Made by a program: the position numbers and the translations under genes. A DNA stretch of 64,000 nucleotides. Source: Balanoglossus misakiensis (taxonomy: Eukaryota; Animalia; Hemichordata). Within the stretch, counting starts at the first letter, position 1. Every line of letters starts with the position of its first letter. The stretch covers positions 15,724,550 to 15,788,549 of the forward strand of contig CM082579.2 in the NCBI GenBank assembly GCA_040954595.2. Reading direction: 5' to 3'. The notes beneath the pieces were generated by a model. The model saw only the letters and a list, made by a program, of their open reading frames with translations. It was not told where the DNA came from and did no database searches. This document shows positions 15,405 through 32,600 of the stretch, piece by piece.

Positions 15405-18246
15405 TCAAATCACCGGTTGTGATTTTGTCGGCGCCGGTAGATTGAGTAAAGGTGTCGGCAAAAATTTGGTTGTTACCGGCATTTTAGATTACGGCGTCGG
15501 CACCCAATGTGCGTCATATTTTCAGCATATGCGTTCCTATCGTTTGTCTATGGACTTTACCCATGTATTGAGAGAAGTTGTCGGGGGTCCCCAACGGCTT
15601 TCCATAACAGACACTAGCGTTCGTTAGCAACGGTAATCAAGTCGGATTTCCTTCGGCCTGGCTCTGCAAAAGACCCGACACTCTAGTACAAAGACGTTGG
15701 CTAAGTCGGGCAAACCGAACAGGGAAAGTCACAGCGGGTCAACACTCGACATTTGTTCCGGTAGGACAAATCACTGCATTATTGCCTGTCAATTTATAGA
15801 GAAAGCCCGAATTTAACCAGGGCGTTTCAAACACCGACGTTAGTTGGGGCACGGCCTGCAGTACTGCCGGGTAAGCTGACATCAGCGTACCGCATATAAT
15901 GTAGGGGGGGGGGGAACAGAACGGTTAAATACTACATTTATCAGATATCAGCTAATTTTGGACAATCATCTAAAATGTAAATCATCTTTTCATATTTGGA
16001 TATCTGATGATGTATGACATTTCCATTATATGTAAAAATGGTGCTGATTATAAAAATGCACTCTGAATGAGCTGATTTAATGCAAAATTGCGTTTTATTC
16101 GTTTTTGCACCAAAAAGGTCATTTTTAGGCAAAATATTCTTTATTTTTTTAATTCGGTGACCTGATCATATATAAACAATTGCTTGTATGTTAAAAGTTT
16201 TTATGACTTTTAAAAGCAGTGACACTGGCGGCATTCAACACGAAAATAACAATTTTAGCCACAATTTGGTCAAAATGGTAAATTTTTGAAAATTACAAAA
16301 AATACCTGTTTTCTACATTTTCGGAAATCTGATGGAGTATAGAATGCTCTTCGTATGTATATATCGATACAAATTCCACAAAAGACCGTCTAATTTGGCT
16401 CACTGCAGACAAAATTGCGTTTTACAAAATTTTCCTTGAAAATGTCATTTTTAGAAAAAAAAAATTAAAAAACCTTTTATCTTCGAATTTGGTGCCCTGA
16501 TCATATATGACATGTTGATTGTATGTTAAAACTTTCGACCACTCCAAAAATGCAGGGATATTGACGGAATTCAAGAAAAAATAGTCATTTTGGCCATATT
16601 TTGACAAAAATGGTAAATTATTAAAAAATCATAAAAAATTAACTCTTTTCTTCATTTTCGGAAATATTATGGAGCATGAAGTGTCGTTCTCTTCTAAAAA
16701 GTGCTGCAAATTCCAGAAAAGGCGGTATAATTTGAATCACCCAAGACAAAATTACCATTTTCGACTTTTTTTCGAAATATTGTTTTTTTACAAAATAAAT
16801 AAGAATAAATTCTTTTCTTAGTTTCAAACAGGTAGAGATACTTTCCACACGGGTTTTCTAACATTGAATTCCCGTTCATCAACTCAGATTTCCTACAGCA
16901 TAAGTCGGCTAAAACCCTGAGACTTTAGAGCAGAAACAGTTGCACACTGGTAACGTTGAACAAGTCGATTTTTCTACGGCCTGGCTCGGCTAAATCTCCG
17001 TCACAATATGACAGACACTATCGTACGTTAGCAACGGTGATCAAGTCAGATTTTCTACGGCATGGCTTGGATAAAGCCCCGGCACTAGAGCAGAAACACG
17101 CGTACAGAGACCACGTTGATCTACTCACATTTCCTTCGGCCTGGCACGGCTGATGCCCCGGCACTATATATAGGACACAGACTGGCGTAAGTTAACAACG
17201 GTAATCACGTCGGGTTTCCTACGGCCTGGCTCAGCTGAAGCCCCGGCGCTCTAGAGCAGAAACAGGCGTACATTGACCACGTTGATCAAGTCAGATTTCC
17301 TACGGCGTGACTCGGCTGGTGCACCGGCTCTATATGACACAGACTGGCGTAAGTTATCAACGGTGATTACGTCGGATTTCCTACGGCCTGGTTTAGCTGA
17401 AGCCCCGGCACTTTAGAGCGGAAACTCGCGTACATTGACCACGATGATCAAGTCAGATCTCCTACGGCCTGGCTCGACTAAAACCCCGGCACACCATGAC
17501 AGACACTAGCGTTCGTTAGCAACGGTGATCAAGTCGGATTTCCTTCGGCCTGGCTCTGCAAAAGACCCGACACTCTAGTACAAAGACGTTGGCTAAGTCG
17601 GGCAAACCGAACAGGGAAAGTCACAGCGGGTCAACACTCTACATTTGTTCCGGTAGGACTGCATTATTGCCTGTCAATTTATAGAGAAAGCCCGAATTTA
17701 ACCAGGGCGTTTCAAACACCGACGTTAGTTGGGGCACGGCCTGCAGTACTGCCGGGTAAGCTGACATCAGCGTACCGCATATAATGTAGGGGGGGGGGGG
17801 ACAGAACGGTTAAATACTACATTTATCAGATATCAGCTAATTTTGGACAATCATCTAAAATGTAAATCATCTTTTCATATTTGGATATCTGATGATGTAT
17901 GACATTTCCATTATATGTAAAAATGGTGCTGATTATAAAAATGCACTCTGAATGAGCTGATTTAATGCAAAATTGCGTTTTATTCGTTTTTGCACCAAAA
18001 AGGTCATTTTTAGGCAAAACATTCTTTATTTTTTTAATTCGGTGACCTGATCATATATAAACAATTGCTTGTATGTTAAAAGTTTTTATGACTTTTAAAA
18101 GCAGTGACACTGGCGGCATTCAACACGAAAATAACAATTTTAGCCACAATTTGGTCAAAATGGTAAATTTTTGAAAATTACAAAAAATACCTGTTTTCTA
18201 CATTTTCGGAAATCTGATGGAGTATAGAATGCTCTTCGTATGTATA

Positions 18247-18507
18247 TGTAGTAAATACCGGTTACTAACCTGGTAGGTACTACGGGTTGTCTTATTCCGG
18301 GCCACAGAGTTTTGCTTGGTACTGGTAGTCAGTCCTGGTAGCGTGTTGCTCTGATGCTGGTCCGGGTCGTTCTGGTTCTGATAGTTGAGAAACGTGGGTA
18401 AAAACCAGTAGCACAGGTGCAGGGCATTCCGTAGTGCAATTACGTCAGAGGCGTCCCACCTGTACAGCAGGGCGCCACCAACGGCCAGAAGCCCACAAAT
18501 TACTACA
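18247..18507 (-). repeat. 3' LTR
   Basis: tgtagtaaatacc...aattactaca; by eye 2 substitutions and 1 indel versus the 5' LTR. Confidence 0.96.
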
Positions 18508-18528
18508 CTCTTCCCACTTTTCTTTTTT
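18508..18528 (-). promoter_or_regulatory. Polypurine tract
   Basis: AAAAAAGAAAAGTGGGAAGAG directly before the 3' LTR. Confidence 0.88.
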
Positions 18529-18629: not shown

Positions 18630-21404
18630 CTAGTGATATAGACGTCTGGTGTTACGGACAGTTGCTTCAAGAAGGTGCACTAGATCAGTCCCCCTTGAGT
18701 TAGCAACAGCCACGGCCACATCCCCTATAAGAGCTGGAGTACTGGTTACATCACGAGGGCCCCCAAGATACGGCGAATCTGTTTCGATTAACAGACGCTC
18801 GATGGGCACCTCCTTCAAAGCTCGAATCTGGCAACGGTCAAATTTGGTGGTCGTGATGGAGAAACCGAAGTAACAATTCTTGAAGCGCTTCGACCACCTT
18901 TGAACAGTGTTGACCGTACCAGTAAAATTGTGGATATGTATTTTCTGCCGTGGCGAACACCATTCCTGTACTAATTGCAATGCTTGGCAATGCACATCTG
19001 ACCCATACTGGTCCCCATATGGCCCTCTAATGTGCAGGACTAAGGGTTTCTCAGGCACACACATGGCAAGTGCTCGAGAGAGAACCCTGTCTTGGGCGCT
19101 CCCGTATTTACTTGGCTCTGTGCGGTCGAGACCCACCTCCCCAAGGGCGGCTACCTGTGTGCTCGTGACAAGCCGCTTGAGGGCTTTAAAGGTCCTTTCG
19201 TCGGCTCTTGGAGCTTTCCTTGGATGGATCCCGATGGCGATACTCCAACCTTTGGGCCGGTTCAAATCCATGGGGTAGTACTCCGGATCGCAAAAGACCT
19301 CGACGCCCCCAATGATGTTGACAGGAAAATTCGCCCTTGGGCCATTATGCCAGTTAACCAAAGCTACTGATGTTGCAGGGCAGTCCCTACCGCGAAATCG
19401 AGCCAGTGTTCGGTCAAGATGAAAGTGGGAATCCATGGCTTCCAATAGACTGTCTGATTGTAGATAATCCTGTGCTGTCCCCTGTAACTCTTGCTCAATA
19501 GGTTGGTCAGCTTGGGATTCTATTGTAATTGAGTCCAGTATCACGTATTCAACCGGGAGCTCAATTTCTGATGGTGGGATCGGGACTGAGTCCTGTATCA
19601 CGTGATCAACAGGTTGCTCAGCCTGTGGGATCCTTTCAGTACAGTCTAATGGAATTTCTTTCTCTACTTGATCACCCCATGAGATTCCCTGGGACGTGGA
19701 GTCCTGTATCACGGATTCAACAGGTTGTTCCATTTCTCCCATACCTATAATCATTGCCAAGTCTTGGTGTGCGTCCTCCACATGGATCGGACTATTTCCT
19801 GAGGCTACAGGTGAATATGTGATCTCCCTCGCATGAGTTGGAGATTGGAACTCACCTTCATTTTCGGAAACCATTTCCTGGTCGACACAGGAGCCAGTCT
19901 CCCCCCTAGGGGTAGGTGACCGCGGCTCGCCGTGATCTGCCTCAGGATTCTCTGTTACCATTTCCTGGTCTGCACTTGGCGAGCAGGAGACAGTCTCCCC
20001 CGTAAGGGTAGGTGACTGAGGATCTCCGTGCTCTGCCTCGGGGCCTTCCAGTTCCGGCATCGGATGACATGGTGAATGCGAGGTGATCTCCGCCACTGGG
20101 GTGGGAGACCGGGACTCACCATGCTCCCTTGGGGGTACCACGGGTTGGAAGGCTTCCCGCTGCTCCTCAGTCAGGTGCGAAAGGAGGATGACGAGAATCC
20201 TCCAATGCAGCAGGACGGCTGGTGAATTCGGTGGGTGCAGCGAGAATCGTCGTGGTACGGCCCATCCGCTGGTCTGGCACAGTCGCTTCATCATCAGACA
20301 GTTGGCTTCGGTGAGCGCAGAGGATGCTGGGACTTCTTCCAAGTGATGTTGCAGGAAGTACTCCAGCAGCTTGGTGACAGTTCCTCTGGGGCCCAAAACC
20401 CAGCCCGCCAGCTTCAGCAGGGCATGAGTAACATCAGCTGTCTGCATGATAAGGGGGTTTTCCTGTAGACGGGGGTCGATATGGTAGAAGAAGCAGTGCC
20501 GTTTGAGACGTTTGGAGGTCTGCCCACATCCTGGAATAGGGCAGGTACATGAGCGGCTGTTGGTAGATTTTCTGCTTCTTCTACCCCTACAGGAATTGGT
20601 CGCCGCAGTCGTGGTGGTCTTTGACTTCGGCACCCCCTTCGGCTCCTGTGCCATCCATACAACGGAGCGTCGCCGCCGCTTCCTGTCACGCTGTATGGTC
20701 ACCTCCAAACGAGATTCCTCACCCCGCTCTCGCTTCTTTGGTTTAGTGGCCGCCATCTTCTGCGTTCCTCTCCATGGCTGGCTTGATGTCTTTCGTGGTG
20801 GCTCACGGGGGGTACTTTTCCGTGGCTCTGCCAGGGGTCGCCGCGCAGCTACTGCTGAGTACAATTCACGGGGCGCTGCAGAAGATGGTTGTGTCGATGT
20901 TCTTCGGGGTGAGGATGCCCGCGATGTTGAGGCGATGGAGGTGACTGGGTCCCTGCCTTGCATGGTGTCTTCTACTACAACCGTCTCCCCCGACTTCTTC
21001 AGCAGGTGCTTGACAGTCGGGAGATCGGGCTGCGTCTGTAGGCGAACATCACGGCAGGGTCCAGACGTGACGGTACTGCTGGGACGGGACTTCCGTTGCG
21101 GGATCCTGTTCTTATGCGGATCCCGATGGAGAAGATGCTTGTACAGCCATTCCTCGGAGAAGATCACATCGGCTTCGCGGCGTGTAGTCTCCACCCAATG
21201 CCAATGGCCTCTCCGAGATGCTAGTTGATACTGGCGTAACAGCATCCTCTCCTTTTCAGGGAGCGTGACCTTGGCCAGCCCGATGCCGTAGGTGAGGTCG
21301 AGTGGTGGAAGCAGAATCCGTTTCCGGTCTGCCTCCACCACTTCTTGCCAGGTCATATGCTGCTTCTTAGGGCGAGGTCCCCCGCGATACCGCTGGGAGT
21401 CCAT
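18630..21404 (-). CDS. Gypsy ORF3 (924 aa): basic N-terminus, C2H2-like finger, acidic S/P-rich repeats and C-terminal TatD-family nuclease
   Basis: AMDSHFHLD, IGIHP, ALGEVGLD, PLVLHIR, IHIHNFTG, CYFGFS, ERLLIETDSPYL and NTRRLY are the TatD motifs in order (~19440-18630). CPIPGC...LKRHCFFYH lies upstream. The first ATG is at 21404. Confidence 0.9.
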   Translation of the reverse strand: MDSQRYRGGPRPKKQHMTWQEVVEADRKRILLPPLDLTYGIGLAKVTLPEKERMLLRQYQLASRRGHWHWVETTRREADVIFSEEWLYKHLLHRDPHKNRIPQRKSRPSSTVTSGPCRDVRLQTQPDLPTVKHLLKKSGETVVVEDTMQGRDPVTSIASTSRASSPRRTSTQPSSAAPRELYSAVAARRPLAEPRKSTPREPPRKTSSQPWRGTQKMAATKPKKRERGEESRLEVTIQRDRKRRRRSVVWMAQEPKGVPKSKTTTTAATNSCRGRRSRKSTNSRSCTCPIPGCGQTSKRLKRHCFFYHIDPRLQENPLIMQTADVTHALLKLAGWVLGPRGTVTKLLEYFLQHHLEEVPASSALTEANCLMMKRLCQTSGWAVPRRFSLHPPNSPAVLLHWRILVILLSHLTEEQREAFQPVVPPREHGESRSPTPVAEITSHSPCHPMPELEGPEAEHGDPQSPTLTGETVSCSPSADQEMVTENPEADHGEPRSPTPRGETGSCVDQEMVSENEGEFQSPTHAREITYSPVASGNSPIHVEDAHQDLAMIIGMGEMEQPVESVIQDSTSQGISWGDQVEKEIPLDCTERIPQAEQPVDHVIQDSVPIPPSEIELPVEYVILDSITIESQADQPIEQELQGTAQDYLQSDSLLEAMDSHFHLDRTLARFRGRDCPATSVALVNWHNGPRANFPVNIIGGVEVFCDPEYYPMDLNRPKGWSIAIGIHPRKAPRADERTFKALKRLVTSTQVAALGEVGLDRTEPSKYGSAQDRVLSRALAMCVPEKPLVLHIRGPYGDQYGSDVHCQALQLVQEWCSPRQKIHIHNFTGTVNTVQRWSKRFKNCYFGFSITTTKFDRCQIRALKEVPIERLLIETDSPYLGGPRDVTSTPALIGDVAVAVANSRGTDLVHLLEATVRNTRRLYH

Positions 21405-21407
21405 GAT

Positions 21408-21430
21408 CTGTACAAGAAAGAATAAGAGAC
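21408..21430 (-). promoter_or_regulatory. 3' splice acceptor upstream of ORF3
   Basis: GTCTCTTATTCTTTCTTGTACAG|ATCATGGAC: polypyrimidine tract plus CAG, 3 nt before the ATG and just after the pol stop. Confidence 0.7.
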
Positions 21431-21439
21431 ATGATGAGG

Positions 21440-23775
21440 TTACACTGAAACTGCGCTTATTTCGCTTGGTTTGCAGTTGGGACAAGAAAACAGTGCTTTT
21501 TTCTTAATTTCGGTTGGTGTAACATTCACACACGCTCCATGAAACCATTCATAGCAATAATCACACTGGATCATAAGTTTCCCATCATCAGGTTTCCTGC
21601 AAAGGCAATATACTTCACCCATTCCTGCGCTGTCCTTAAGTAAGGTCTTCCTAAAGGTTACTATCCAGCGAGGAAGCTCTTTATCCTGGCAAGGCTTTAG
21701 CCGATCGTGATGGGCGGTCCAAACCTCTCTTCGCAATTTGATGCGGAAGAGATAGGGTGTGATTTTGGTGATGATGACCCCTGGTCCTTTCCAAGGTGGG
21801 CACAGTTTACGGCATTTGCCTTTCGTGGATCCGGTATCCAACAGATATACTGGATCCCCGACCTTGAAGGACTGCTTGTTCACTCGGAGGTCGTAATCAC
21901 GTTTCATTCTTTCTTGTGTGGTCTTCAGTATTTCCCGCGCTGTCTCATGAGAATTCATTATGGCCTCCTCCAATTCGTACACATACCCCTCATGAGATTG
22001 GTCAGTGTTTGTCCTGGGAGGCCGGAATACAAGATCAGCAGGCTGGTTTATTTCCCTACCTAACATCATCCGGTTGGGCGTAAAACCAGTGCTGCGGTTG
22101 ACTGAAGAGCGGAGAGCTCCGGCGATCTGTGAGAGAAATTTATCCCATTCTTTCTGTGACTTGATGTAGCATCTGATTGCGTTCATCAAAGTGCGATTCT
22201 GCCGTTCCGCCTGGCCATTAGCAGATGGTCTGTAAGAAGTGGTTCTTGTTTTATGGATATGAAGAATCTCACAAATCACTGAAAATAACTGACTTTCAAA
22301 GTTTCTTCCCTGGTCAGTGTGAATTTCAAATGGATACCCGAACCTGGTAAAGAATTCAGCTACTGCGGCGTGTGCTGTTTCCTCAGCATTTTGGGTTGGC
22401 AGCGGTATACATTCTACCCACTTGGTGAATTGATCTACCATTACCAGGATATAATCATTACCTCGAGGTGTCTTGGGTAACGGCCCTAGGAAATCCAAGT
22501 GAACTCGTTCCATCGCTGCCCCCGCATGAAATAGGGTCAGCTGATGTCGGTGGTGTCTGTGTGCTTTCTTGTCGTGATTGCAAATTGCACACATTGTGAC
22601 ATACTTGCGGATGTCGTGGGACATCCTATACCAATGGTATTTGGTCCTGATTCTGGCTTGAGTGCGCTGTATTCCCTGGTGCCCACAAGATGGAATATCA
22701 TGATTCAACCGTATAACTTCATCTTTCATGGTATTAGGGATGACTAGTTGTTTGGTGTTTTCATCTGTGGCCGACTTTCTCCACAGTACTCCCTCCTCAA
22801 TGAAGTATAGGTCACGGTTGATCCAATAATTCTTTGCTGCAGGGCTGGAGAGTCTCAGCTCTCCTTCCTCAGGAACTTTCCCAGTTTCAAGCCATGTGAT
22901 GAGAATCCCCAGTGTTTTATCAGTCTGCTGTGCCTGTTGGTATTCTTTGTGAGAATATCCTAGGATGGCTGTTCCCAGTTTAGTGGAATCCTCTCTGGAT
23001 AGTATGCAGACTTGTACAGGATCCGGAAAGTGGGAAATTTCGAGGTTCGAATGAGGCACGTCGATTAGTTCGTCCTGGACTGTGTCACGGGTGATTCCGC
23101 AGCAAGTTAATAGACCCAAGTTACCTCCAGGGTCCCATGGCCAGGTCTCTTCATCTTGAATTGCTGGTTGTATTTGTGGGTCCATGCTACCGGTACATTG
23201 GTTCACCACATATGGCCCTTCTTTTTGGTGGAGTTGGCTGTTCCTGTGTTTGTCTCTGGGTTCAGCCATGGTAAGGGGAATTACATCATCCACCTCATTG
23301 ATGAACGGGCTCCAGTTTCGATGTGCTCTGCTGCAATAGTTGCATCCCCCGCAAGGTAAGGATTCCAATTTTGTTCCATGCTCAAAATTGGTGCAGGCAC
23401 TTTGCTCGGGTAATCTTGACAGGGAGTCGGCGTTGATGTGTTGTTTTCCTGGTCGGTGTTGCACAGTAAAGTTGTACTGGCTTAGTTCTTCTAGCCAGCG
23501 AGCTAATTGGCCTTGTGGTTCTTTGAATCGTATTAGCCATAGCAAACTGTGATGATCTGTCCGTACCAGAAATTTATTACCAAGCAAGTAGTATCGAAAC
23601 TGCCGGGTGAACCTTACGACTGCCAGCAATTCTTTTCTTGTGGTGCAGTACCGTCTCTGTTCAGGTGTCAGGGCATAATTTCCATAAGAAATTGTTCTCT
23701 CCTTGCCGTTCTGTATCTGGGATAACTCAGCTCCGATGGCAAAGTCTGAGGCATCCGTGTCTAGAATGAAGTTAT
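21440..23775 (-). CDS. Pol 3' part: RNase H, integrase and C-terminal PHD finger
   Basis: ILDTDASDFAIG...RKELLAVV...TDHHSL...ADSLSR; HHCC (H...GHQG...CAIC); HLDFLGP, TDQGRNFES, QAER; GPY-like WKGPG; VYCLCRKPDDGKLMIQCDYCYEWFHGACV...CPNC. Confidence 0.95.
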
Positions 23776-24462
23776 AATAATAATAATAGTTTATTCAGAT
23801 ACAATATAGGCCACCGGCCTCTGTGTATACAAACTAGTACGTCACCTGAAATCTCCGGAGGACGCAAAAATGTAAAATAATTGTCGAATTACATCATGGC
23901 CATGAAAAAGGAAAGAAACGAATCACACTTCAGATCGTTTTTTCGTGGCAAAAAATACAAATTTTGACAGATTACGCAAGATACTTGGGTTACATGATTG
24001 CATGAGGAGGTAAAATTTATCGTAGGTTGGCATAAAATAGTAATATCTAGGAATATACTTGACTCGTAAATCCGCATAGAATGGACACACAATACAAAAG
24101 TGAAATTCATCCTCTATCTCATTACCATTACAATAGATACATGTTCTATCTTCACGATTATTGCGTAATCGCCTGTCAGCTTCGATACGTAAAGCGTGCG
24201 CTGATATTCTAAATCTACAAAGTGCCTCTCGAAAGTGCGACTTTTCAATCATGTTGAAATACAATTCTCGTCGAAAAATATGTTTGAACTTTCTGTAAGA
24301 GTCTAGTTTAGGAAACAAACGTAGACTAGTATGCCAGTTTTGAACATCTAGATCATGACAACGCTGTTTGAATAAGGAAATAAAATTGACATTGTTACCA
24401 ACCCCCTGATTAACCCATGCCTCACCCATTCCATAGGAAAAAAGTAACATTTTCACATCGTG
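23776..24462 (-). mobile_element. 5'-truncated LINE (RTEX/CR1-like ORF2 C-terminus) inserted in the Gypsy RNase H
   Basis: 13-bp TSD agaatgaagttat (23763-23775, 24463-24475) and (ATT)n tail. ORF 23923-24456 reads RFRISAHALRIE...CIYC...IEDEFHFCIVCPFYADLR. Confidence 0.9.
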
Positions 24463-26585
24463 AGAATGAAGTTATCCTTTGTATTGGGCAAGGTCAGAAC
24501 AGGGGCAGCGGTGAGTGCTTTCTTGATGTCCTCAAAAGCTTGATGTTGCTCATACCCCCAGGCGAATGGTTTCTTCCCGGTTACACTGTACAGAGGTACC
24601 GCTAACTTGGCATAATCCTTGATGAAGGCGCGATGGTAGTTCGCAAATCCTGCAAATTTTTCCACGTCCTTCGTGTTGATAGGGATTGGCCATTCTTGGA
24701 TCATCCGAATAGATTGATCTTCAAGAGATATTCTGTTTCTACCAACTTTCCTAGCCAGGAAACTTACTTCCTGTTGGAATAACTCACACTTTCTTGGCTT
24801 GAGTTTCAGTTGGTACTTCCGTAGTCGTTTGAAGACTTCCCGGAGATTTTTAAGGTGTTCTTCGAAGCTTGATCCGAGCACCATTATATCATCCAGAAAT
24901 GCCAGTACGATGTCCCAAGTTAGGCCCCTTAGTACTAGGTTCATCACTCTGGAGAAAGTAGCAGGTGCGTTGCACAGACCAAACGGCATTCGGGTAAATT
25001 CGTACAAACCGTATTTGGTGGTGAAAGCCGTTTTCTTGCAGTCGGGTGGATTAATACTTATCTGCCAGTATGCCGAGTTGGCGTCCAACTTGGAGAACCA
25101 TAGACATCCTGATAGAGTGTCCATACAATCCTCCACCAATGGCAGCGGAAAAACGTCCTTTACGGTGATGTTGTTTAGGGCTCGATAATCCACACACCAA
25201 CGCACGCTTGCATCTCGTTTTCGCACTAGAACTGGTGCCGAAGCCCATTCGGAGATTGATGGCCTTATAACTCCGGCATTCAGCATTTTCTTTAAGTGGG
25301 CTTCTTCTTCCCCTGCAAAACACATTGGAGTGCGCCGTAGACGTTGCTTTATTGGTGGATTGTCTTTTGTGTCGACGCTATGTGTGATTGCAGTGAAATT
25401 TCCCAGATCAAATTCGTCCTTGGCGAAAACATCTTCGTAATCGAACAGAAGTTTATGTAGTTGGGTTTGTTCATCTGCTTGAAGATGACTGCAGGATCTT
25501 TCAAACAGATTTCCTAAATGTGAAGGTAGCCCGCCTACCGGCTGAGGGCGTACTTCAGTCTTCTGTTGGGCGTCAGGTGATGGGACGGTGATCACCTCCA
25601 CTTCTGTAGCTGATGCGATAGGATCCTTGCTCTTCAGAGTTATATAATTCTCCGTCGGGTTGACTAAACAAACCTTAGGTGATTGTTCCCCCGAGTGAAG
25701 TGTCCTGGGCATCATTACTTTCAATCCCTGGGTTGGTTCTACCAAATAGTCGGTTAGATCCGTATCGAGTAAACAGGATATTCTGACCACACTATTCGGT
25801 GGGATGATTGTCCGTCGCTTCAAAGTTACCTTTGCCACTTTCGGCGAATGATCCCTCTGTCCAAGGGTCATAGGTATGTTTTCCTCCCCCAAATGGAGCC
25901 AGTTGTTACTCATGTTGATGGTTGCTCCATTTGCTTGTAGGAAATCAACTCCCAGTAGCATTTCGTCGCCTATTGGGGCTACGTATATATCGGCATTGAA
26001 GACGGCACGTCCTAGCTGGATGTCAACGGGTCCGACCAGGTTGGCTTTCATGGTTAACTGTCTTCCAGCTGTTTGCATGGTAACTTCCCGCAATATTGGA
26101 GGTTTTACTCGCAGACTGTTGTACAGTTGGTCAGAGATAATAGTGACTTCTGCGGCGGTATCGATGATAGCGGTAGCGGACTGGTCTCCAATTTTTGCTG
26201 GGATGCTATACATTGAACTGGACACAAGTTGGTTAATGACAACCATAGGCATGTCATTAGCTTCGGATGTTGCCATACTGGTCTTTGACGATTTTGTCTC
26301 TTCCACTGTTGAGTTGGTCACATCTGCGCAATGTGTACCATCATCAGTTGGAGTTGGTATAGTCGTTGTATACACATCTGCACAATGTGTATTGACATCA
26401 AGTGTTACCGATTCAGCTGATGGCGATGGCACGTCAATATTACAGTTGCGATCGCCCTCCGTGGAAGCGTTGAGGCCATAGGTTATGGGTTGTTGGGTCA
26501 AACTTTGGCCTCTGGGCTTGACCCTTTGGTGTTTAATGGACTGGCCGGCGCTGTTTCCTTCTTTTCTGATGTTCCATGGGGACAT
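24463..26585 (-). CDS. Pol 5' part: aspartic protease, RT and start of RNase H (-1 frame relative to gag)
   Basis: AIIDTAAEVTII; WASAPVLVRK, CVDYRALN, LDANSAYWQI, MPFGLCNAPATF, AFLDD. Confidence 0.95.
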
Positions 26586-28171
26586 TCCCTCTTAAAATGG
26601 CCTATCTCGCCGCACCCATAGCAACCACGGCTTCTCGGAGATGGGGATCAGTACCTTGATGTCTGCTGCGTTGTCACCACTTTGGTTAATTCGGCCAGTT
26701 GGGTGGTGACAGTCTGCAAAGTTGCGCTGATTGCCGACATCTGCGTCTCCAGCCTCGACATCCTCCCCTGCATCTCAGTTCCTCCGTCTTTGCTTCTCGG
26801 GCGGATGGGAGCTCTTTCAGGAGAGGGTGATTGTTTTCGCTCATACCTGGAGACAGATCGTGCTTCGATGTTGGTTTTCGGGTATTCCGGATCAGGACTT
26901 ACAAATCGTACTTCCCGCCTCTGCGATCGGATGCCATAGATTGCTTGATGATTATACTGGAATCTTTTGACAGTATCGATCGCTGCTTCGATGGAAGTTG
27001 GACGCTGATTTGCTGCCCATTGGCCTGCTTCTCGATCACAACATCCTTGGCAAAAGCGCATCACAGCTTGAAGCTCTATGGTGGCATCGCTGCTTTCTTG
27101 AAATGCCTGCATCGCAAGTGAATAAACCCTGTCCGCCCATTCTTCTAATTTCTCCTCGGTGTTTTGTCGGATCTGGGCGAACTGAAGCTGACTGGATTCT
27201 GGAATCTCTTTCAAGCCGAATCGTTTCTCCAGTTTTTTTAGCAGCTCGTGATAGCTGACGTCTGCGTTTTTCTGGAGGATCCTGGTATAAACTTCACTTG
27301 CTTTCCCCTCTAAACACCAGCACAGATAATTTTTGCATTCATTGAATGACATGTCCTGCATCTCGGCAAATTTCGTGAATTTTACCTGATATGCCTGCCA
27401 GTTTCCGGAGCCATCGTAGATTAGCGTCCTGGGAACTGACATTGGGATGTGACGATGACTTGATCTGTCCATCCGGTTATCATGCTGGTAGTAGAGTTGA
27501 GTTCTGGGAGGAGCGAATTCTGTTGGATAATGGCCATCATAATAATCCGGTGATGCACCCGCTCGTGGTCTGGACACATTCACCCGTGATGGACGATAAT
27601 TCTGCTCATCTTCAGGCCAGGTCGCATATCGCTGTTCATCGCGAACACTTCGTGGATATGGTCTACCATACGCAGGAGCATCTGGCCTGTACGCAGGATG
27701 GAATGAACTATCATACCCCCGAGAGTCGGTATGATGTTGACTTACCCTATCCTGTGTATAGTCTGGTTCGTCAAATCGCCTCGATCGAATAGGTGCTTTG
27801 GGTTGTTGATGTCGTGAAGGTCGTTGAACATGTCTGCTTTCGCGTTCTTTCGTGACCTTGTCAATCCTTTCCATCCATTCCTTCATGCTATCTTCATCAC
27901 TATCCTTCCCGCTGTCTTCCTCATCTTCCCAGAACGGGGCGAGATGGGTAGTTGTGTTCATGGATGGTTTGGCTGAAGCACCTGGTGGGTCGAAGTCGGC
28001 CATCTCCGTGAATTCTTCGGATGGTTTGAACCTAGGAATACTGCATACCATCTCATATGTTACATAGCCATGTCGTTCACGTAATCGCAGAATCGCCTTG
28101 GCTATTTTCCGTCCCACTCCAGGTAGACATTGAAGAGTTCCTAGAGTACTGGTGTTGACGTTGATTTTCAT
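26498..28171 (-). CDS. Gag with N-terminal helix-hairpin-helix and C-terminal CCHC knuckle; in-frame TGA at 26650-26648
   Basis: Starts MKINVNTSTLGTLQCLPGVGRKIAKAILRLRERHG; capsid-like YDGSGNWQAY...LEGKA...LEKRFG. After the TGA the frame continues SPSPRSRGCYGCGEIGHFKRECP to a stop at 26500-26498. Confidence 0.85.
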
Positions 28172-29339
28172 GATGGCGCGTTAGAAATTATTGAGATGGA
28201 AGTTGCAGATACCGTTGTCGGAAAATATTACCCACACAAGGACAGAGTAATATTTAACAAAGTGATATTACTCGTAATATTTACTGAGCAATACCCAAAT
28301 TGATCAGTTTGTCACAAGAATAATCAACGACAATGACCAATCAATTATATCACAACAATAATAGAACCCGCAATTATACAGAGTAATATAATGTGATAAT
28401 AAGACTAGTACGACTGATATCAATAATACAATAATTGGAATGGCTCACAATAATAAAACTCGCAATAATACTGAGTAATACAATGCGACACCAAATATTA
28501 TTGATATAGCGAATAATTGAACAGTTTCAACACTTACCAATTGCTGAGGAATTACAGTTCTGTACTGATACTGTGTGGTACAACTAGTAAAAATGCGAAA
28601 CAAAGCGGAATTTGTTAAAGCGAAACTTTTCAGAAGTAAAACAACAGATAAAAGACAAGTCCGAAAGCTGGAACTTGTCCGCACAAAAAGTACGTAAAAT
28701 TATGACGAAAGGTGCGGTGTACAGAACTGCCACAAAAAATGGCTTCTTTGACGAAATGGCTTCCTCGTCAATGCAATGGTGGCACCAATACTAGCAGAAA
28801 GTTACTTTCCAAGCTATCCGTACACACACAACGGCAGTATAACGGGCTAGGAAGTATAACTGCAAATCTTACCTTGCCGTGTTCGGAAGTTCGCCGTACA
28901 CACAAAAAATACGGTAAGACAAAGTACACGTAAAACAACACAGAAATAAGTTGTGAAACTTTTCCTTGAAACGTGCACAGAAAAAAACGGCACAGTGTAG
29001 CGGAAAATTCCTCTCACTGAATTTCTTGAACTTGGCCCCAGCTGTCCGAACTTCAATAAATATTACAAGCTTTACCGGAACAACTGGAGATTCGTTCCCA
29101 GTTTTCTCTCGACTTCACCTAGTTCTCTGTCTCCCACCAGAAAAACTAATGAAGACGGTTTCTTGGTGCAAGTGTTGAAAACTGAAAGCACTTGGGCGTC
29201 CGCACTACTCCTATAAGTTTCAAGCGGAAAGCCGCGACGCAACTTTAACGATAGCGAGTACTCCGACTACTTATCCTCAAAAATCGGCAAAAAGTTACCA
29301 ACGGAGTTTTTTCACCTTTTCCCCACTAGGGTTGAAAAG

Positions 29340-29350
29340 TCGCAGCGCCA
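29340..29350 (-). promoter_or_regulatory. Primer-binding site, probably tRNA-Ser
   Basis: TGGCGCTGCGA begins 2 nt after the 5' LTR. It resembles the complement of a tRNA-Ser 3' end (from recall, not aligned). Confidence 0.75.
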
Positions 29351-29352
29351 AT

Positions 29353-29612
29353 TGTAGTAAATACCGGTTACTAACCTGGTAGGTACTACGGGTTGTCTTA
29401 TTCCGGGCCACAGAGTTTTCTTGGTACTGGTCGTCAGTCCTGGTAGCGTGTTGCTCTGATGCTGGTCCGGGTCGTTCTGGTTCTGATAGTTGAGAAACGT
29501 GGGTAAAAACCAGTAGCACAGGTGCAGGGCATTCCGTAGTGCAATTACGTCAGAGGCGTCCCACCTGTACAGCAGGGCGCCACCAACGGCCAGAAGCCCA
29601 CAAATCACTACA
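29353..29612 (-). repeat. 5' LTR
   Basis: tgtagtaaatacc...aatcactaca. Confidence 0.96.
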
Positions 29613-32600
29613 TATATATCGATACAAATTCCACAAAAGACCGTCTAATTTGGCTCACTGCAGACAAAATTGCGTTTTACCAAATTTTCCTTGAAAATGT
29701 CATTTTTAGAAAAAAAAAAAAAAAAACCTTTGTTCTTCGAATTTGGTGCCCTGATCATATATGACATGTTGATTGTATGTTAAAACTCTCGACCACTCCA
29801 AAAATGCAGAGATATTGACGGAATTCAAGAAAAATAGCCATTTTGGCCATATTTTGACAAAAATGGTAAATTTTTAAAAAATCATAAAAAATTAACTCTT
29901 TTCTTCATTTTCGGAAATATTATGGAGCATGAAGTGTCGTTCTCTTGTAAAAAGTGCTGCAAATTCCAGAAAAGGCGGTATAATTTGAATCACCCAAGAC
30001 AAAATTGCAATTTTTCGACTTTTTTTCGAAAAATTGTCTTTTTTACAAAATAAATAAGAATAAATTCTTTTCTTAGTTTCAAACGGGTAGAGATACTTTC
30101 CACACGGGTTTTCTAACATTAAATTCCCGTTCATCAACTCAGATTTCCTACAGCATAAGTCGGCTAAAACCCTGAGACTTTAGAGCAGAAACAGTTGCAC
30201 ACTGGTAACGTTGAACAAGTCGATTTTTCTACGGCCTGGCTCGGCTAAATCTCCGTCACAATATGACAGACACTAGCGTACGTTAGCAACGGTGATCAAG
30301 TCAGATTTTCTACGGCATGGCTTGGATAAAGCCCCGGCACTCTAGAGCAGAAACACGCGTACAGAGACCACGTTGATCAAGTCTGATCTCCTACGGCTTT
30401 GCTCGACTAAAACCCCGGCACACTATGACAGACATTAGCGTTCGTTAGCAACGTTGATCAAGTCAGAATTCCTACGGCATGGCTTGGCTAAAGCCCTGGC
30501 ACTCTAGAGCAGAAACACGCGTACAGAGACCACGTTGATCTACTCACATTTCCTTCGGCCTGGCACGGCTGATGCCCCGGCACTATATATAGGACACAAA
30601 CTGGCGTAAGTTAACAACGGTAATCACGTCGGGTTTCCCACGGCCTGGCTCAGCTGAAGCCCCGGCACTCTAGAGCAGAAACAGGCGTACATTGACCACG
30701 TTGATCAAGTAAGATTTCCTACGGCGTGACTCGGCTGGTGCATCGGCTCTATATGACACAGACTGGCGTAAGTTATCAACGGTGATTACGTCGGATTTCC
30801 TACGGCCTGGTTTAGCTGAAGCCCCGGCCCTTTAGAGCGGAAACACGCGTACATTGACCACGATGATCAAGTCAGATCTCCTACGGCCTGGCTCGACTAA
30901 AACCCCGGCACACCATGACAGACACTAGCGTTCGTTAGCAACGGTGATCAAGTCGGATTTCCTTCGGCCTGGCTCTGCAAAAGACCCGACACTCTAGTAC
31001 AAAGACGTTGGCTAAGTCGGGCAAACCGAACAGGGAAAGTCACAGCGGGTCAACACTCGACATTTGTTCCGGTAGGACTGCATTATTGCCTGTCAATTTA
31101 TAGAGAAAGCCCGAATTTAACCAGGGCGTTTCAAACACCGACGTTAGTTGTGGGCACGGCCTGCAGTACTGACGGGTAAGCTGACATCGGCGTACCGCAT
31201 GTAATGTAGGGGGGGGGGGAACAGAACGGTTCAATACTATATTTATTAGATATCAGCTACTTTTGGACAATCATCTAAAATCTAAATCATTTTTTCATAT
31301 TTGGATATCTGATGATGTATGAAATTTCCATTATATGTAAAAATGGTGCTGATTATAAAAAATGCACTCTGAATGAGCTGATTTAATACAAAATTGCGTT
31401 TTATTCGTTTTTGCACCAAAAAGGTCATTTTTAGGGAAAACATTCTTTATTCTTTAAATTCGGTGACCTGATCATATATAAACAATTGCTTGTATGTTAA
31501 AAGTTTTAATGACTTTTAAAAGCAGTGACACTGGCGGCATTCAACACGAAAATAACAATTTTAGCCACAATTCGGTCAAAATGGTAAATTTTTGAAAATT
31601 ACAAAAAATACCTGTTTTCTACATTTTCGGAAATCTGATGGAGTATAGAATGCTCTTCGTATACATATATCGATACAAATTCCACAAAAAAACGGCCAAT
31701 TTGGCTCACTGCAGACAAAATTGCGTTTTACCAAATTTTCCTTGAAAATGTCATTTTTAGAAAAAAAATAAAAAAAACCTTTGTTCTTCGAATTTGGTGC
31801 CCTGATCATATATGACTTGTTGATTGTATGTTAAAACTTTCGACCACTCCAAAAATGCGGAAATATTATGGAGCATGAAGTGTCGTTCTCTTGTAAAAAG
31901 TGCTGCAAATTCCAGAAAAGGCGGTATAATTTGAATCACCCATGACAAAATTACCATTTTCGACTTTTTTTCGAAAAATTGTGATTTTTACAAAATAAAT
32001 AAGAATAAATTATTTTCTTAGTTTCAAAAGGGTAGAGACACTTTCCACACAGGTTTTTTAACATTGAATTCCCATTCATCAACTCAGATTTCCTACAGCA
32101 TAAGTCGGCTAAAACCCTGACACTCTAGAGCAGAAACAGTTGCACACTGGTAACGTTGAACAAGTCGATTTTTCTACGGCCTGGCTCGGCTAAATCTCCG
32201 TCACAATATGACAGACACTAGCGCACGTTAGCAACGGTGATCAAGTCAGATTTTCTACGGCATGGCTGGGATAAAGCCCCGGCACTCTAGAGCAGAAACA
32301 CGCGTACAGAGACCACGTTGATCAAGTCTGATCTCCTACGGCTTGGTTCGACTAAAACCCCGGCACACTATGACAGACACTAGCGTTCGTTAGCAACGTT
32401 GATCAAGTCAGATTTCCTACGGCATGGCTTGGCTAAAGCCCTGGCACTCTAGAGCAGAAACACGCGTACAGAGACCACGTTGATCTACTCCCATTTCCTT
32501 CGGCCTGGCACAGCTGATGCCCCGGCACTATATATAGGACACAGACTGGCGTAAGTTAACAACGGTAATCACGTCGGGTTTCCTACGGCCTGGCTCATCT

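What the first reader, a model, noticed from the sequence alone, without database searches (positions are those of the whole stretch)
18630..21404. LTR retrotransposon carrying a TatD nuclease gene in the env position
Seen: an intact 924-aa ORF lies between the integrase stop and the PPT, inside matched LTRs with a TSD, so it is part of the element. Its last ~270 aa keep all the TatD metal-binding motifs (DxHxH, GExGLD, LHxR, HxFTG, ETDxP). Known: TatD proteins are TIM-barrel 3'-5' exo/AP-endonucleases, and the usual Gypsy ORF3 is env. I know of no described TatD-bearing Gypsy lineage. Inference: a captured nuclease might process or repair cDNA or integration intermediates, remove RNA:DNA or abasic intermediates, or act against host defence or competing elements.
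Basis: partly seen in the sequence, partly recalled or inferred. Interest (0 to 1): 0.92.

Follow-up and report, generated by a model that had tools for sequence, protein, structure and literature searches.

The report
Gypsy retrotransposon clade carrying TATDN2-like nuclease
A young jumping gene carries, where retroviruses keep their envelope gene, an intact TatD nuclease gene related to the animal R-loop-clearing enzyme TATDN2; the same gene sits at the same place across an old branch of related elements, so it is likely a conserved accessory enzyme that would trim the element's own RNA structures.

Summary
Observation confirmed. A Gypsy element (LTRs differing at 3 of 261 positions, TATA target duplication proven by empty satellite sites) carries an intact 924-aa ORF3 between the integrase stop and the PPT, ending in a class II TatD domain (Pfam E 8e-35, TatD fold). 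TatD is not a one-off: in 56 contigs from two other assemblies, 15 of 15 with a PHD-tipped integrase have the same ORF3 downstream. They form one clade in RT and integrase trees (100/99). Integrase and TatD distances correlate, catalytic residues are kept, dN/dS is 0.14, and a splice-acceptor-like site precedes the ATG (10 of 11). The nuclease groups with animal TATDN2 rather than bacterial TatD (TATDN1/3 not in the tree) and adds a zinc-finger-like domain with no fold match. Best guess, untested: a separately expressed nuclear 3' nuclease that clears R-loops or structured RNA of the element. No paper found; Repbase could not be searched. The scan noted the same layout earlier in a sea urchin. 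Closest precedent: DEDDy ORF3s of rotifer Juno/Vesta.

The parts
29613..29616 (-). 5' copy of the 4-bp target-site duplication TATA
   Evidence: empty sites in 14 other satellite units
29353..29612 (-). 5' LTR, 260 bp, TG...CA
29340..29350 (-). Primer-binding-site-like sequence TGGCGCTGCGA, 2 nt after the LTR; TGGCGCT also follows the LTR in relatives L174 and L177
   Evidence: the tRNA was not identified by a tool
28532..28875 (-). Splice-donor-like sites in the 5' leader (AAG|GTAAGA at 28872, TTG|GTAAGT at 28537); use inferred, not shown
26648..28171 (-). gag, 507 aa, with an N-terminal helix-hairpin-helix motif and a PNMA/Retrotrans_gag capsid region
24463..26591 (-). pol, 5' part: aspartic protease and reverse transcriptase, ending at the insertion
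23775..24462 (-). Inserted LINE-like 3' fragment with (TTA)n tail and 12-bp duplication; it interrupts pol. The LINE label rests on tail, duplication and recalled likeness; Pfam gave no hit
21440..23774 (-). pol, 3' part: RNase H, integrase (H2C2, rve, SH3-like) and C-terminal PHD finger
21408..21430 (-). Splice-acceptor-like pyrimidine tract and CAG, 3 nt before the ORF3 ATG
18630..21404 (-). ORF3, 924 aa: small helical domain (about 15-90), basic disordered stretch (100-280, 24% K+R), zinc-finger-like plus helical domain N2, acidic disordered linker, TatD domain
20142..20561 (-). ORF3 domain N2 (residues 282-421): C-x4-C...H-x4-H followed by a helical part ending in NSPAxLxHWR; found in 48 of 48 first homologues and 0 of 15 host TATDN2 rows; no fold match
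18633..19445 (-). ORF3 TatD domain (residues 654-924), class II HxH type; H660, H662, E756, H791, H825, E874 and D876 present
18508..18528 (-). Polypurine tract
18247..18507 (-). 3' LTR, 261 bp
18243..18246 (-). 3' copy of the target-site duplication TATA

Best explanation
This is the third gene of an old clade of Gypsy LTR retrotransposons, an intact TatD nuclease gene related to animal TATDN2 that was likely captured once, is predicted to be made from its own spliced message, and likely works in the nucleus as a metal-dependent 3' nuclease that clears R-loops and other structured RNA of the element. Shown: position inside the LTRs, TatD fold and ligands, recurrence behind a PHD-tipped integrase, co-divergence with pol, purifying selection, grouping with TATDN2 against bacterial TatD. 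Inferred: single ancient capture; splicing from a leader donor to the acceptor before the ATG; nuclear location and nucleic-acid binding through the basic disordered stretch and domain N2; substrate. The proposed benefit is that full-length element RNA keeps being made, and that R-loop damage or silencing signals at element loci in germ cells are reduced. Confidence in the shown part is about 0.95; the number below is for the mechanism.
For: Recurrence: 15 of 15 contigs with a PHD-tipped integrase have N2 plus TatD downstream; 5 of these were picked by integrase similarity alone and all 5 carry it. P0121 holds integrase, PHD and TatD in one frame. A PPT follows ORF3 in 8 of 11 contigs checked. 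Integrase tree 14 rows 100/99; RT tree 9 rows 100/99; each count includes P0094, whose TatD link is by cluster only. Integrase versus TatD identity: Spearman 0.42, p 0.001, n = 13. The RT split between clade A and the L192 group mirrors the TatD split between types A and B. E756, H727, H791 and H825 kept in 19 of 19 type A domains at a median 38% identity. dN/dS 0.14 in both unsaturated pairs. Acceptor-like site within 15 nt of the ORF3 ATG in 10 of 11 elements, against 12% of 2343 background ATGs. Mobile TatDs plus TATDN2 versus bacteria 100/99; the extra His at 823 is in 23 of 23 element-type, 15 of 15 TATDN2 and 0 of 39 bacterial rows. [quoted passage not shown] It is germ-cell expressed (PMC12709183, passages).
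Against: No biochemical or expression data. TATDN1 and TATDN3 are absent from the tree, and so is any TATDN2 known to be the host gene of a mollusc or echinoderm. Mobile TatDs are sister to, not nested in, the TATDN2 rows, so the donor is not pinned and substrate preference may have changed. TATDN1 and TATDN3 are AP endonucleases and ssDNA exonucleases (PMC10085689, passages), so the fold does not fix the substrate. The gene is dispensable in the sister group: L188 has a repeat of its 5' end about 560 nt after the pol stop and no ORF3, and L190 has none in 1061 nt. In 5 of 16 clade A elements the ORF3 frame does not open within 200 nt of the pol stop, and L181 has a stop in it. The 11 ORF3 variant sites listed for the window's own family are 8 non-synonymous to 3 synonymous, 9 of them in predicted disordered parts (only 40 of 213 variant rows were shown). 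Most dS values are saturated.
Confidence: 0.45

Rival explanations
1. ORF3 is a replication or integration helper: it trims 3' ends of primers or cDNA, or cuts abasic sites in cDNA and at integration gaps, inside the particle or the pre-integration complex.
For: Class II TatDs have 3'-5' ssDNA exonuclease and AP endonuclease activity (PMC10085689, passages). It is inherited with pol. One copy elsewhere fuses it in frame to integrase (P0121). 3'-end processing was proposed for the rotifer DEDDy ORF3s (PMC5408684, Discussion read).
Against: RNase H motifs are intact in the window and almost all kept in 8 relatives. ORF3 is a separate gene with its own ATG and acceptor-like site, with no evident route into particles. 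The fused form is 1 of the 15 listed members of its cluster, where 9 are the stand-alone 862-aa form. Human TATDN2 has minimal activity on plain RNA-DNA duplexes. Most Gypsy elements manage without it.
Confidence: 0.25
2. ORF3 is a counter-defence nuclease: it destroys double-stranded RNA, small-RNA precursors or stray cDNA that would trigger piRNA/RNAi silencing or innate sensing.
For: TATDN2 cuts hairpin RNA both exo- and endonucleolytically. Other Gypsy lineages independently took up 3'-5' exonucleases as ORF3 (PMC5408684), which suggests a shared need. Orchid Gypsy elements carry an active m6A demethylase (PMC9289625, passages). TatD evolves much faster than integrase (median 38% versus 66% identity), as conflict genes often do (inference).
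Against: No direct evidence. dN/dS is 0.14 where measurable, with no sign of positive selection. It overlaps with the best explanation, differing mainly in target.
Confidence: 0.22
3. ORF3 is passive cargo: a host gene picked up by chance and carried along without benefit.
For: Absent from some sister elements; broken or shifted in 5 of 16 clade A copies; rotifer ORF3s showed no departure from neutrality within the genome.
Against: Catalytic residues kept in 19 of 19 domains while synonymous sites are saturated, dN/dS 0.14, conserved position and acceptor, and a conserved partner domain that host TATDN2 lacks.
Confidence: 0.03

Closest known systems
Juno and Vesta LTR retrotransposons of bdelloid rotifers with DEDDy exonuclease or GDSL esterase ORF3 (PMC5408684; abstract, first part of Results and Discussion read)
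   Same: Gypsy-type element with an enzymatic, non-env ORF3 after pol; predicted 3'-5' exonuclease with intact catalytic residues; function untested.
   Different: Other fold (DEDDy versus TatD TIM barrel); rotifer-specific, recent and patchy, whereas this is fixed across a deep clade and co-diverges with pol; those elements have dUTPase, this one has a PHD-tipped integrase and an HhH-tipped Gag.
Animal TATDN2 (PMC10711561, PMC12709183, PMC10085689; passages read)
   Same: Class II HxH TatD domain at the C-terminus behind a long disordered N-terminus; shared extra His (823) and FCDP-like loop; same catalytic Glu/Glu/Asp; sister group in the tree.
   Different: About 30% identity; HFH signature (23 of 23) in place of HCH (13 of 15); extra folded domains N1 and N2; single open frame inside a retrotransposon; near-identical multi-copy clusters of 17 to 182 members.
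env ORF3 of errantiviruses (PMC13524379, passages; splicing of env recalled)
   Same: Position between pol and the 3' LTR; acceptor-like site before its start, as for env messages.
   Different: No transmembrane segment or env domain; soluble nuclease fold.
AlkB-carrying orchid Gypsy elements (PMC9289625) and planarian Burro elements (PMC6431247); passages read
   Same: Capture of host nucleic-acid enzymes as extra Gypsy ORFs.
   Different: Other enzymes; the giant-transposon review has 0 occurrences of TatD.

Membership tests
Ty3/Gypsy LTR retrotransposon | Direct LTRs TG...CA with short TSD, PBS and PPT | tested here: met
Ty3/Gypsy LTR retrotransposon | gag then pol in the order PR-RT-RH-IN | tested here: met
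   pol interrupted by an insertion in this copy
Ty3/Gypsy LTR retrotransposon | Placement in a named Gypsy clade (GyDB or Repbase reference tree) | not testable with these tools
   No reference element library; trees hold only fetched contigs
TatD family (PF01026) | Profile match above the curated cut-off | tested here: met
   120.9 bits versus 27
TatD family (PF01026) | TIM-barrel metallohydrolase fold | tested here: met
   Foldseek top matches are TatD, E down to 4e-12, TM 0.7-0.8 by target
TatD class II | N-terminal HxH motif plus Glu, His, His, Glu, Asp ligands | tested here: met
   class definition from PMC10085689
TatD family (PF01026) | Metal-dependent nuclease activity | not testable with these tools
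   Needs an in vitro assay
TATDN2 subfamily | Groups with TATDN2 in a tree that holds all three eukaryotic clades | tested here: inconclusive
   Sister to 9 TATDN2 rows (named so by a source or grouping with those) against 25 bacterial rows including E. coli TatD, YcfH and YjjV, 100/99; TATDN1 and TATDN3 were not available
TATDN2 subfamily | Long disordered N-terminal region before the nuclease domain | tested here: met
   pLDDT under 50 over 402 residues; feature from PMC12709183 and PMC10085689
TATDN2 subfamily | R-loop-specific RNA 3' nuclease activity | not testable with these tools
   Needs an in vitro assay
env-bearing Gypsy (errantivirus-like) | ORF3 is a membrane glycoprotein with a transmembrane anchor | tested here: not met
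   Highest 19-residue Kyte-Doolittle mean 1.38; only Pfam hit is TatD
Juno/Vesta DEDDy-ORF3 elements | DEDDy exonuclease ORF3 and dUTPase between PR and RT | tested here: not met
   ORF3 is TatD; no dUTPase hit in the PR-RT frame

The most novel reading that the evidence does not exclude
A very old lineage of animal Gypsy retrotransposons took the host's germ-line R-loop nuclease TATDN2, fitted it with a new zinc-finger targeting domain, and has used it ever since as a dedicated accessory factor that strips RNA from R-loops or duplexes at element loci, so evading silencing and DNA-damage responses. It would be the first element-encoded R-loop resolvase, and many TatD or TATDN2 genes annotated in molluscs and echinoderms would be this cargo.
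Probability: 0.3. Interest if true: 0.85.

Novelty: new variant of a known kind. Interest (0 to 1): 0.68.

Why it matters
It adds a third-gene class to Gypsy elements that, unlike the patchy rotifer cases, is fixed across a deep clade and co-diverges with pol, so it is a real part of that life cycle. It links retrotransposon biology to TATDN2 and R-loop control in germ cells, and the enzyme can be tested in a tube with published substrates. It also bears on annotation: relatives are listed as uncharacterised host genes, as 'tatD' or 'putative deoxyribonuclease TATDN2' in bivalves, and as bacterial 'TatD family hydrolase' in genome bins. The repeated choice of unrelated 3'-5' nucleases as ORF3 points to a common unmet need of these elements.

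Tried and rejected
No whole genome is held for the window. Scans of metagenome and genome contigs with alignment A1 were swamped by bacterial TatD (80 loci each, 24-33% identity, used only as outgroup); viral contigs gave 12 pattern matches and no relative. A search for fused forms of 1972-5000 aa found none among 7183 candidates (weak evidence). No RNA holder was listed, so expression and splicing were not tested. Domain N2 folds confidently (pLDDT 88.9) but matched nothing: Foldseek PDB and viral E above 1, VIA best Z 3.2, ESM Atlas best 0.89 to unnamed clusters; this does not show the fold is new. A search of earlier findings by sequence found nothing. Rejected: TatD as a nested host retrogene or neighbouring gene (it lies inside the LTRs and recurs with pol); bacterial origin; replacement of a dead RNase H; env. 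Literature searches with no description of TatD in a retrotransposon, judged from listings: TatD + retrotransposon (21 of 21 listed), TatD + gypsy (3 of 3), TatD + transposable element (30 of 37 listed). PMC6431247 and PMC10294476 have 0 occurrences of TatD in the main text. No supplementary files were read, and element libraries in supplements, Repbase, Dfam, GyDB or subscription journals could hold a note on this ORF.

Full report
Observation. The minus strand carries a Gypsy-type element from 29612 to 18247. The LTRs (260 and 261 bp, TG...CA) differ by two substitutions and one indel, so the insertion is young. It sits in one unit of a roughly 2-kb satellite; 14 other units in the window show the empty site with a single TATA, which proves the 4-bp duplication, and public contigs show the same empty joint. 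A PBS-like TGGCGCTGCGA follows the 5' LTR and a PPT precedes the 3' LTR. Gag has an N-terminal helix-hairpin-helix motif; pol runs PR-RT-RH-IN with a C-terminal PHD finger. Pol is interrupted at the RT/RNase H border by a LINE-like fragment with a 12-bp duplication, which the finding did not mention. ORF3 (21404-18630, 924 aa) is open, lies between the pol stop and the PPT, and ends in a TatD domain (Pfam E 7.8e-35; 12 solved-structure matches, all TatD-type; fold). It has no transmembrane segment.

Protein anatomy. The AlphaFold model (49-row alignment) has three confident parts: a small helical domain (about 15-90), domain N2 (282-421) and the TatD barrel (about 654-924), joined by a basic and an acidic disordered stretch. 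N2 starts with C-x4-C...H-x4-H and ends in NSPAxLxHWR. A profile of N2 hits 48 of 48 first homologues and 0 of 15 host TATDN2 rows.

Relatives. The TatD region found 64 proteins of 508-1617 aa; named ones come from Ruditapes, Saccostrea, Dreissena, Pinctada, Magallana, Mya, Haliotis, Pecten, Strongylocentrotus and Anneissia. The full search gave 196 clusters at E up to 1e-30. Five of ten clusters looked up have 5 to 182 members that are the same ORF on many contigs, as expected of a mobile gene; a sixth 5-member cluster is mixed with a host kinase. One member, P0121, holds integrase, PHD and TatD in one frame, and another, P0094, is a complete pol with PHD that clusters with a TatD ORF.

Genomic context elsewhere. 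Searching 380 prokaryotic genome assemblies with N2 gave 11 matches in 2 (G374, G375). These contigs are LTR elements with PHD fingers, which I infer to be animal DNA binned with a bacterium; the host is not known. I examined 56 contigs: 11 found by N2, 40 taken from the 121 integrase matches (mostly the top ranks) and 5 from a PF01026 search. All 11 with an integrase core at least 61% identical to the window's, and all 4 more where only the PHD end is on the contig, have N2 and TatD downstream: 15 of 15. Five of the 11 were picked by integrase alone. Of 34 contigs with a more distant integrase, 1 (L192) has a TatD ORF3, of a second type B; only 10 of the 34 extend more than 2.5 kb past the integrase core, so many are uninformative. 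A PPT follows ORF3 in 8 of 11 contigs checked, and L174 and L177 continue into an LTR-sized stretch and the same PBS start.

Evolution. TatD-A elements form one clade by integrase (14 of 47 rows, 100/99) and by RT (9 of 39 rows, 100/99); both counts include P0094. Integrase and TatD pairwise identities correlate over 13 elements (Spearman 0.42, permutation p 0.001; medians 66% and 38%); shared ancestry makes this a test of joint descent, not of co-adaptation. In the RT tree the sister group holds L192 (100/96), and in the TatD tree types A and B are sisters (97/91), which fits one capture before the split. In that sister group L188 and L190 lack ORF3, so it can be lost. Ligands are kept in 19 of 19 type A and 4 of 4 type B domains. 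Domains were cut out by the HxH and ExD motifs, so those positions are fixed by construction, while E756, H727, H791, H823 and H825 are not; 14 rows lacking the motifs were dropped (the fragment L227, 7 bacterial, 6 proteins). dN/dS is 0.14 for L172/L173 (35.5 synonymous, 17.5 non-synonymous changes in 259 codons) and for L224/L225; the other 11 pairs are saturated or nearly so. Against: the 11 listed ORF3 variants in the window's own family are 8 non-synonymous to 3 synonymous, 9 in disordered parts, and in 5 of 16 clade A elements the frame does not open near the pol stop.

Origin. In a 61-row tree, 27 mobile-type TatDs are sister to 9 TATDN2 rows (fish, frog, crustaceans, nematodes, tardigrade; some named so by a source, others unnamed but grouping with them), and together they are split from 25 bacterial rows including E. 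coli TatD, YcfH and YjjV at 100/99. The His at 823 is shared with 15 of 15 TATDN2 rows and 0 of 39 bacterial rows. TATDN1 and TATDN3 could not be included, and of the type B rows only L192 is shown to lie in an element, so 'TATDN2-related' is likely, not proven.

Expression. In 11 elements where ORF3 opens within 200 nt of the pol stop, 10 have a pyrimidine tract and YAG within 15 nt before the ATG, against 12% of 2343 background ATGs; the elements are kin, but their synonymous sites are saturated. Donor-like sites lie in the window's leader, though 7 sites of similar score occur in the whole element. A spliced message is inferred, not seen.

Mechanism. Human TATDN2 degrades the RNA of R-loops and hairpins, not DNA, barely touches plain RNA-DNA duplexes, and needs its disordered N-terminus (PMC10711561, passages); it protects germ cells (PMC12709183, passages). 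ORF3 has the same layout and catalytic residues, is a separate gene, and sits beside an intact RNase H. I therefore favour a nuclear nuclease acting on R-loops or structured RNA of the element (0.45) over a cDNA or integration helper (0.25), a silencing or sensing suppressor (0.22) and passive cargo (0.03).

Novelty. Enzymatic non-env ORF3s are known (PMC5408684; PMC9289625). No paper on TatD in a retrotransposon turned up (listings only, apart from the passages named). Also consulted as passages: PMC10085689, PMC13524379, PMC2836005, PMC6431247, PMC10294476, PMC6962438. Repbase, Dfam, GyDB and supplements were not seen. This scan's earlier notes report the same layout in a sea urchin and degenerate TatD fusions in a flatworm; I did not see those sequences, and my evidence comes from other DNA. 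Verdict: a real, conserved and apparently undescribed variant of a known kind; interest 0.68.

Noticed in passing
window:8551-12794: Penelope-like retroelement (RT plus GIY-YIG-like tail by motif, recalled; no Pfam hit), 752-aa frame at 11580-9322, with a perfect 838-nt inverted copy of its 3' part and perfect 412-nt inverted outer arms.
   Followed up: no
window:15600-64000: Satellite of roughly 1.9-2.4 kb units, each holding a short array of diverged 81-bp repeats; its summed depth in public contigs is about 1000 times that of the element.
   Followed up: partly
window:522-3500: Gag-like ORF with a CCCH-like end and a broken tyrosine-recombinase-like frame (HSFRRGGA), resembling a DIRS/Ngaro-type element (recalled likeness).
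   Followed up: no
window:4246-6711: 821-aa LINE ORF2-like frame (endonuclease end plus RT motifs), CR1/L2-like by recall.
   Followed up: no
window:28066-28171: Gag starts with a helix-hairpin-helix motif (Pfam HHH_3, E 1.5e-6), also matched in L173, L174 and L177; unusual for Gag and possibly another clade marker.
   Followed up: partly
G374 and G375: These bacterial genome assemblies hold 121 integrase matches and 24 non-bacterial-type TatD matches, so they contain much animal retroelement DNA.
   Followed up: yes
P0063, P0064, P0350, P0352, P0340: Some relatives add other domains: PF08719 (NADAR, name recalled) beside TatD, or a CCHC zinc knuckle before it.
   Followed up: no
L192:7221-9731, L223-L225: Second, shorter TatD ORF3 type (about 500 aa, NYVFP loop) in the sister lineage without a PHD finger; bivalve proteins named 'tatD' and 'putative deoxyribonuclease TATDN2' fall in this group.
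   Followed up: partly
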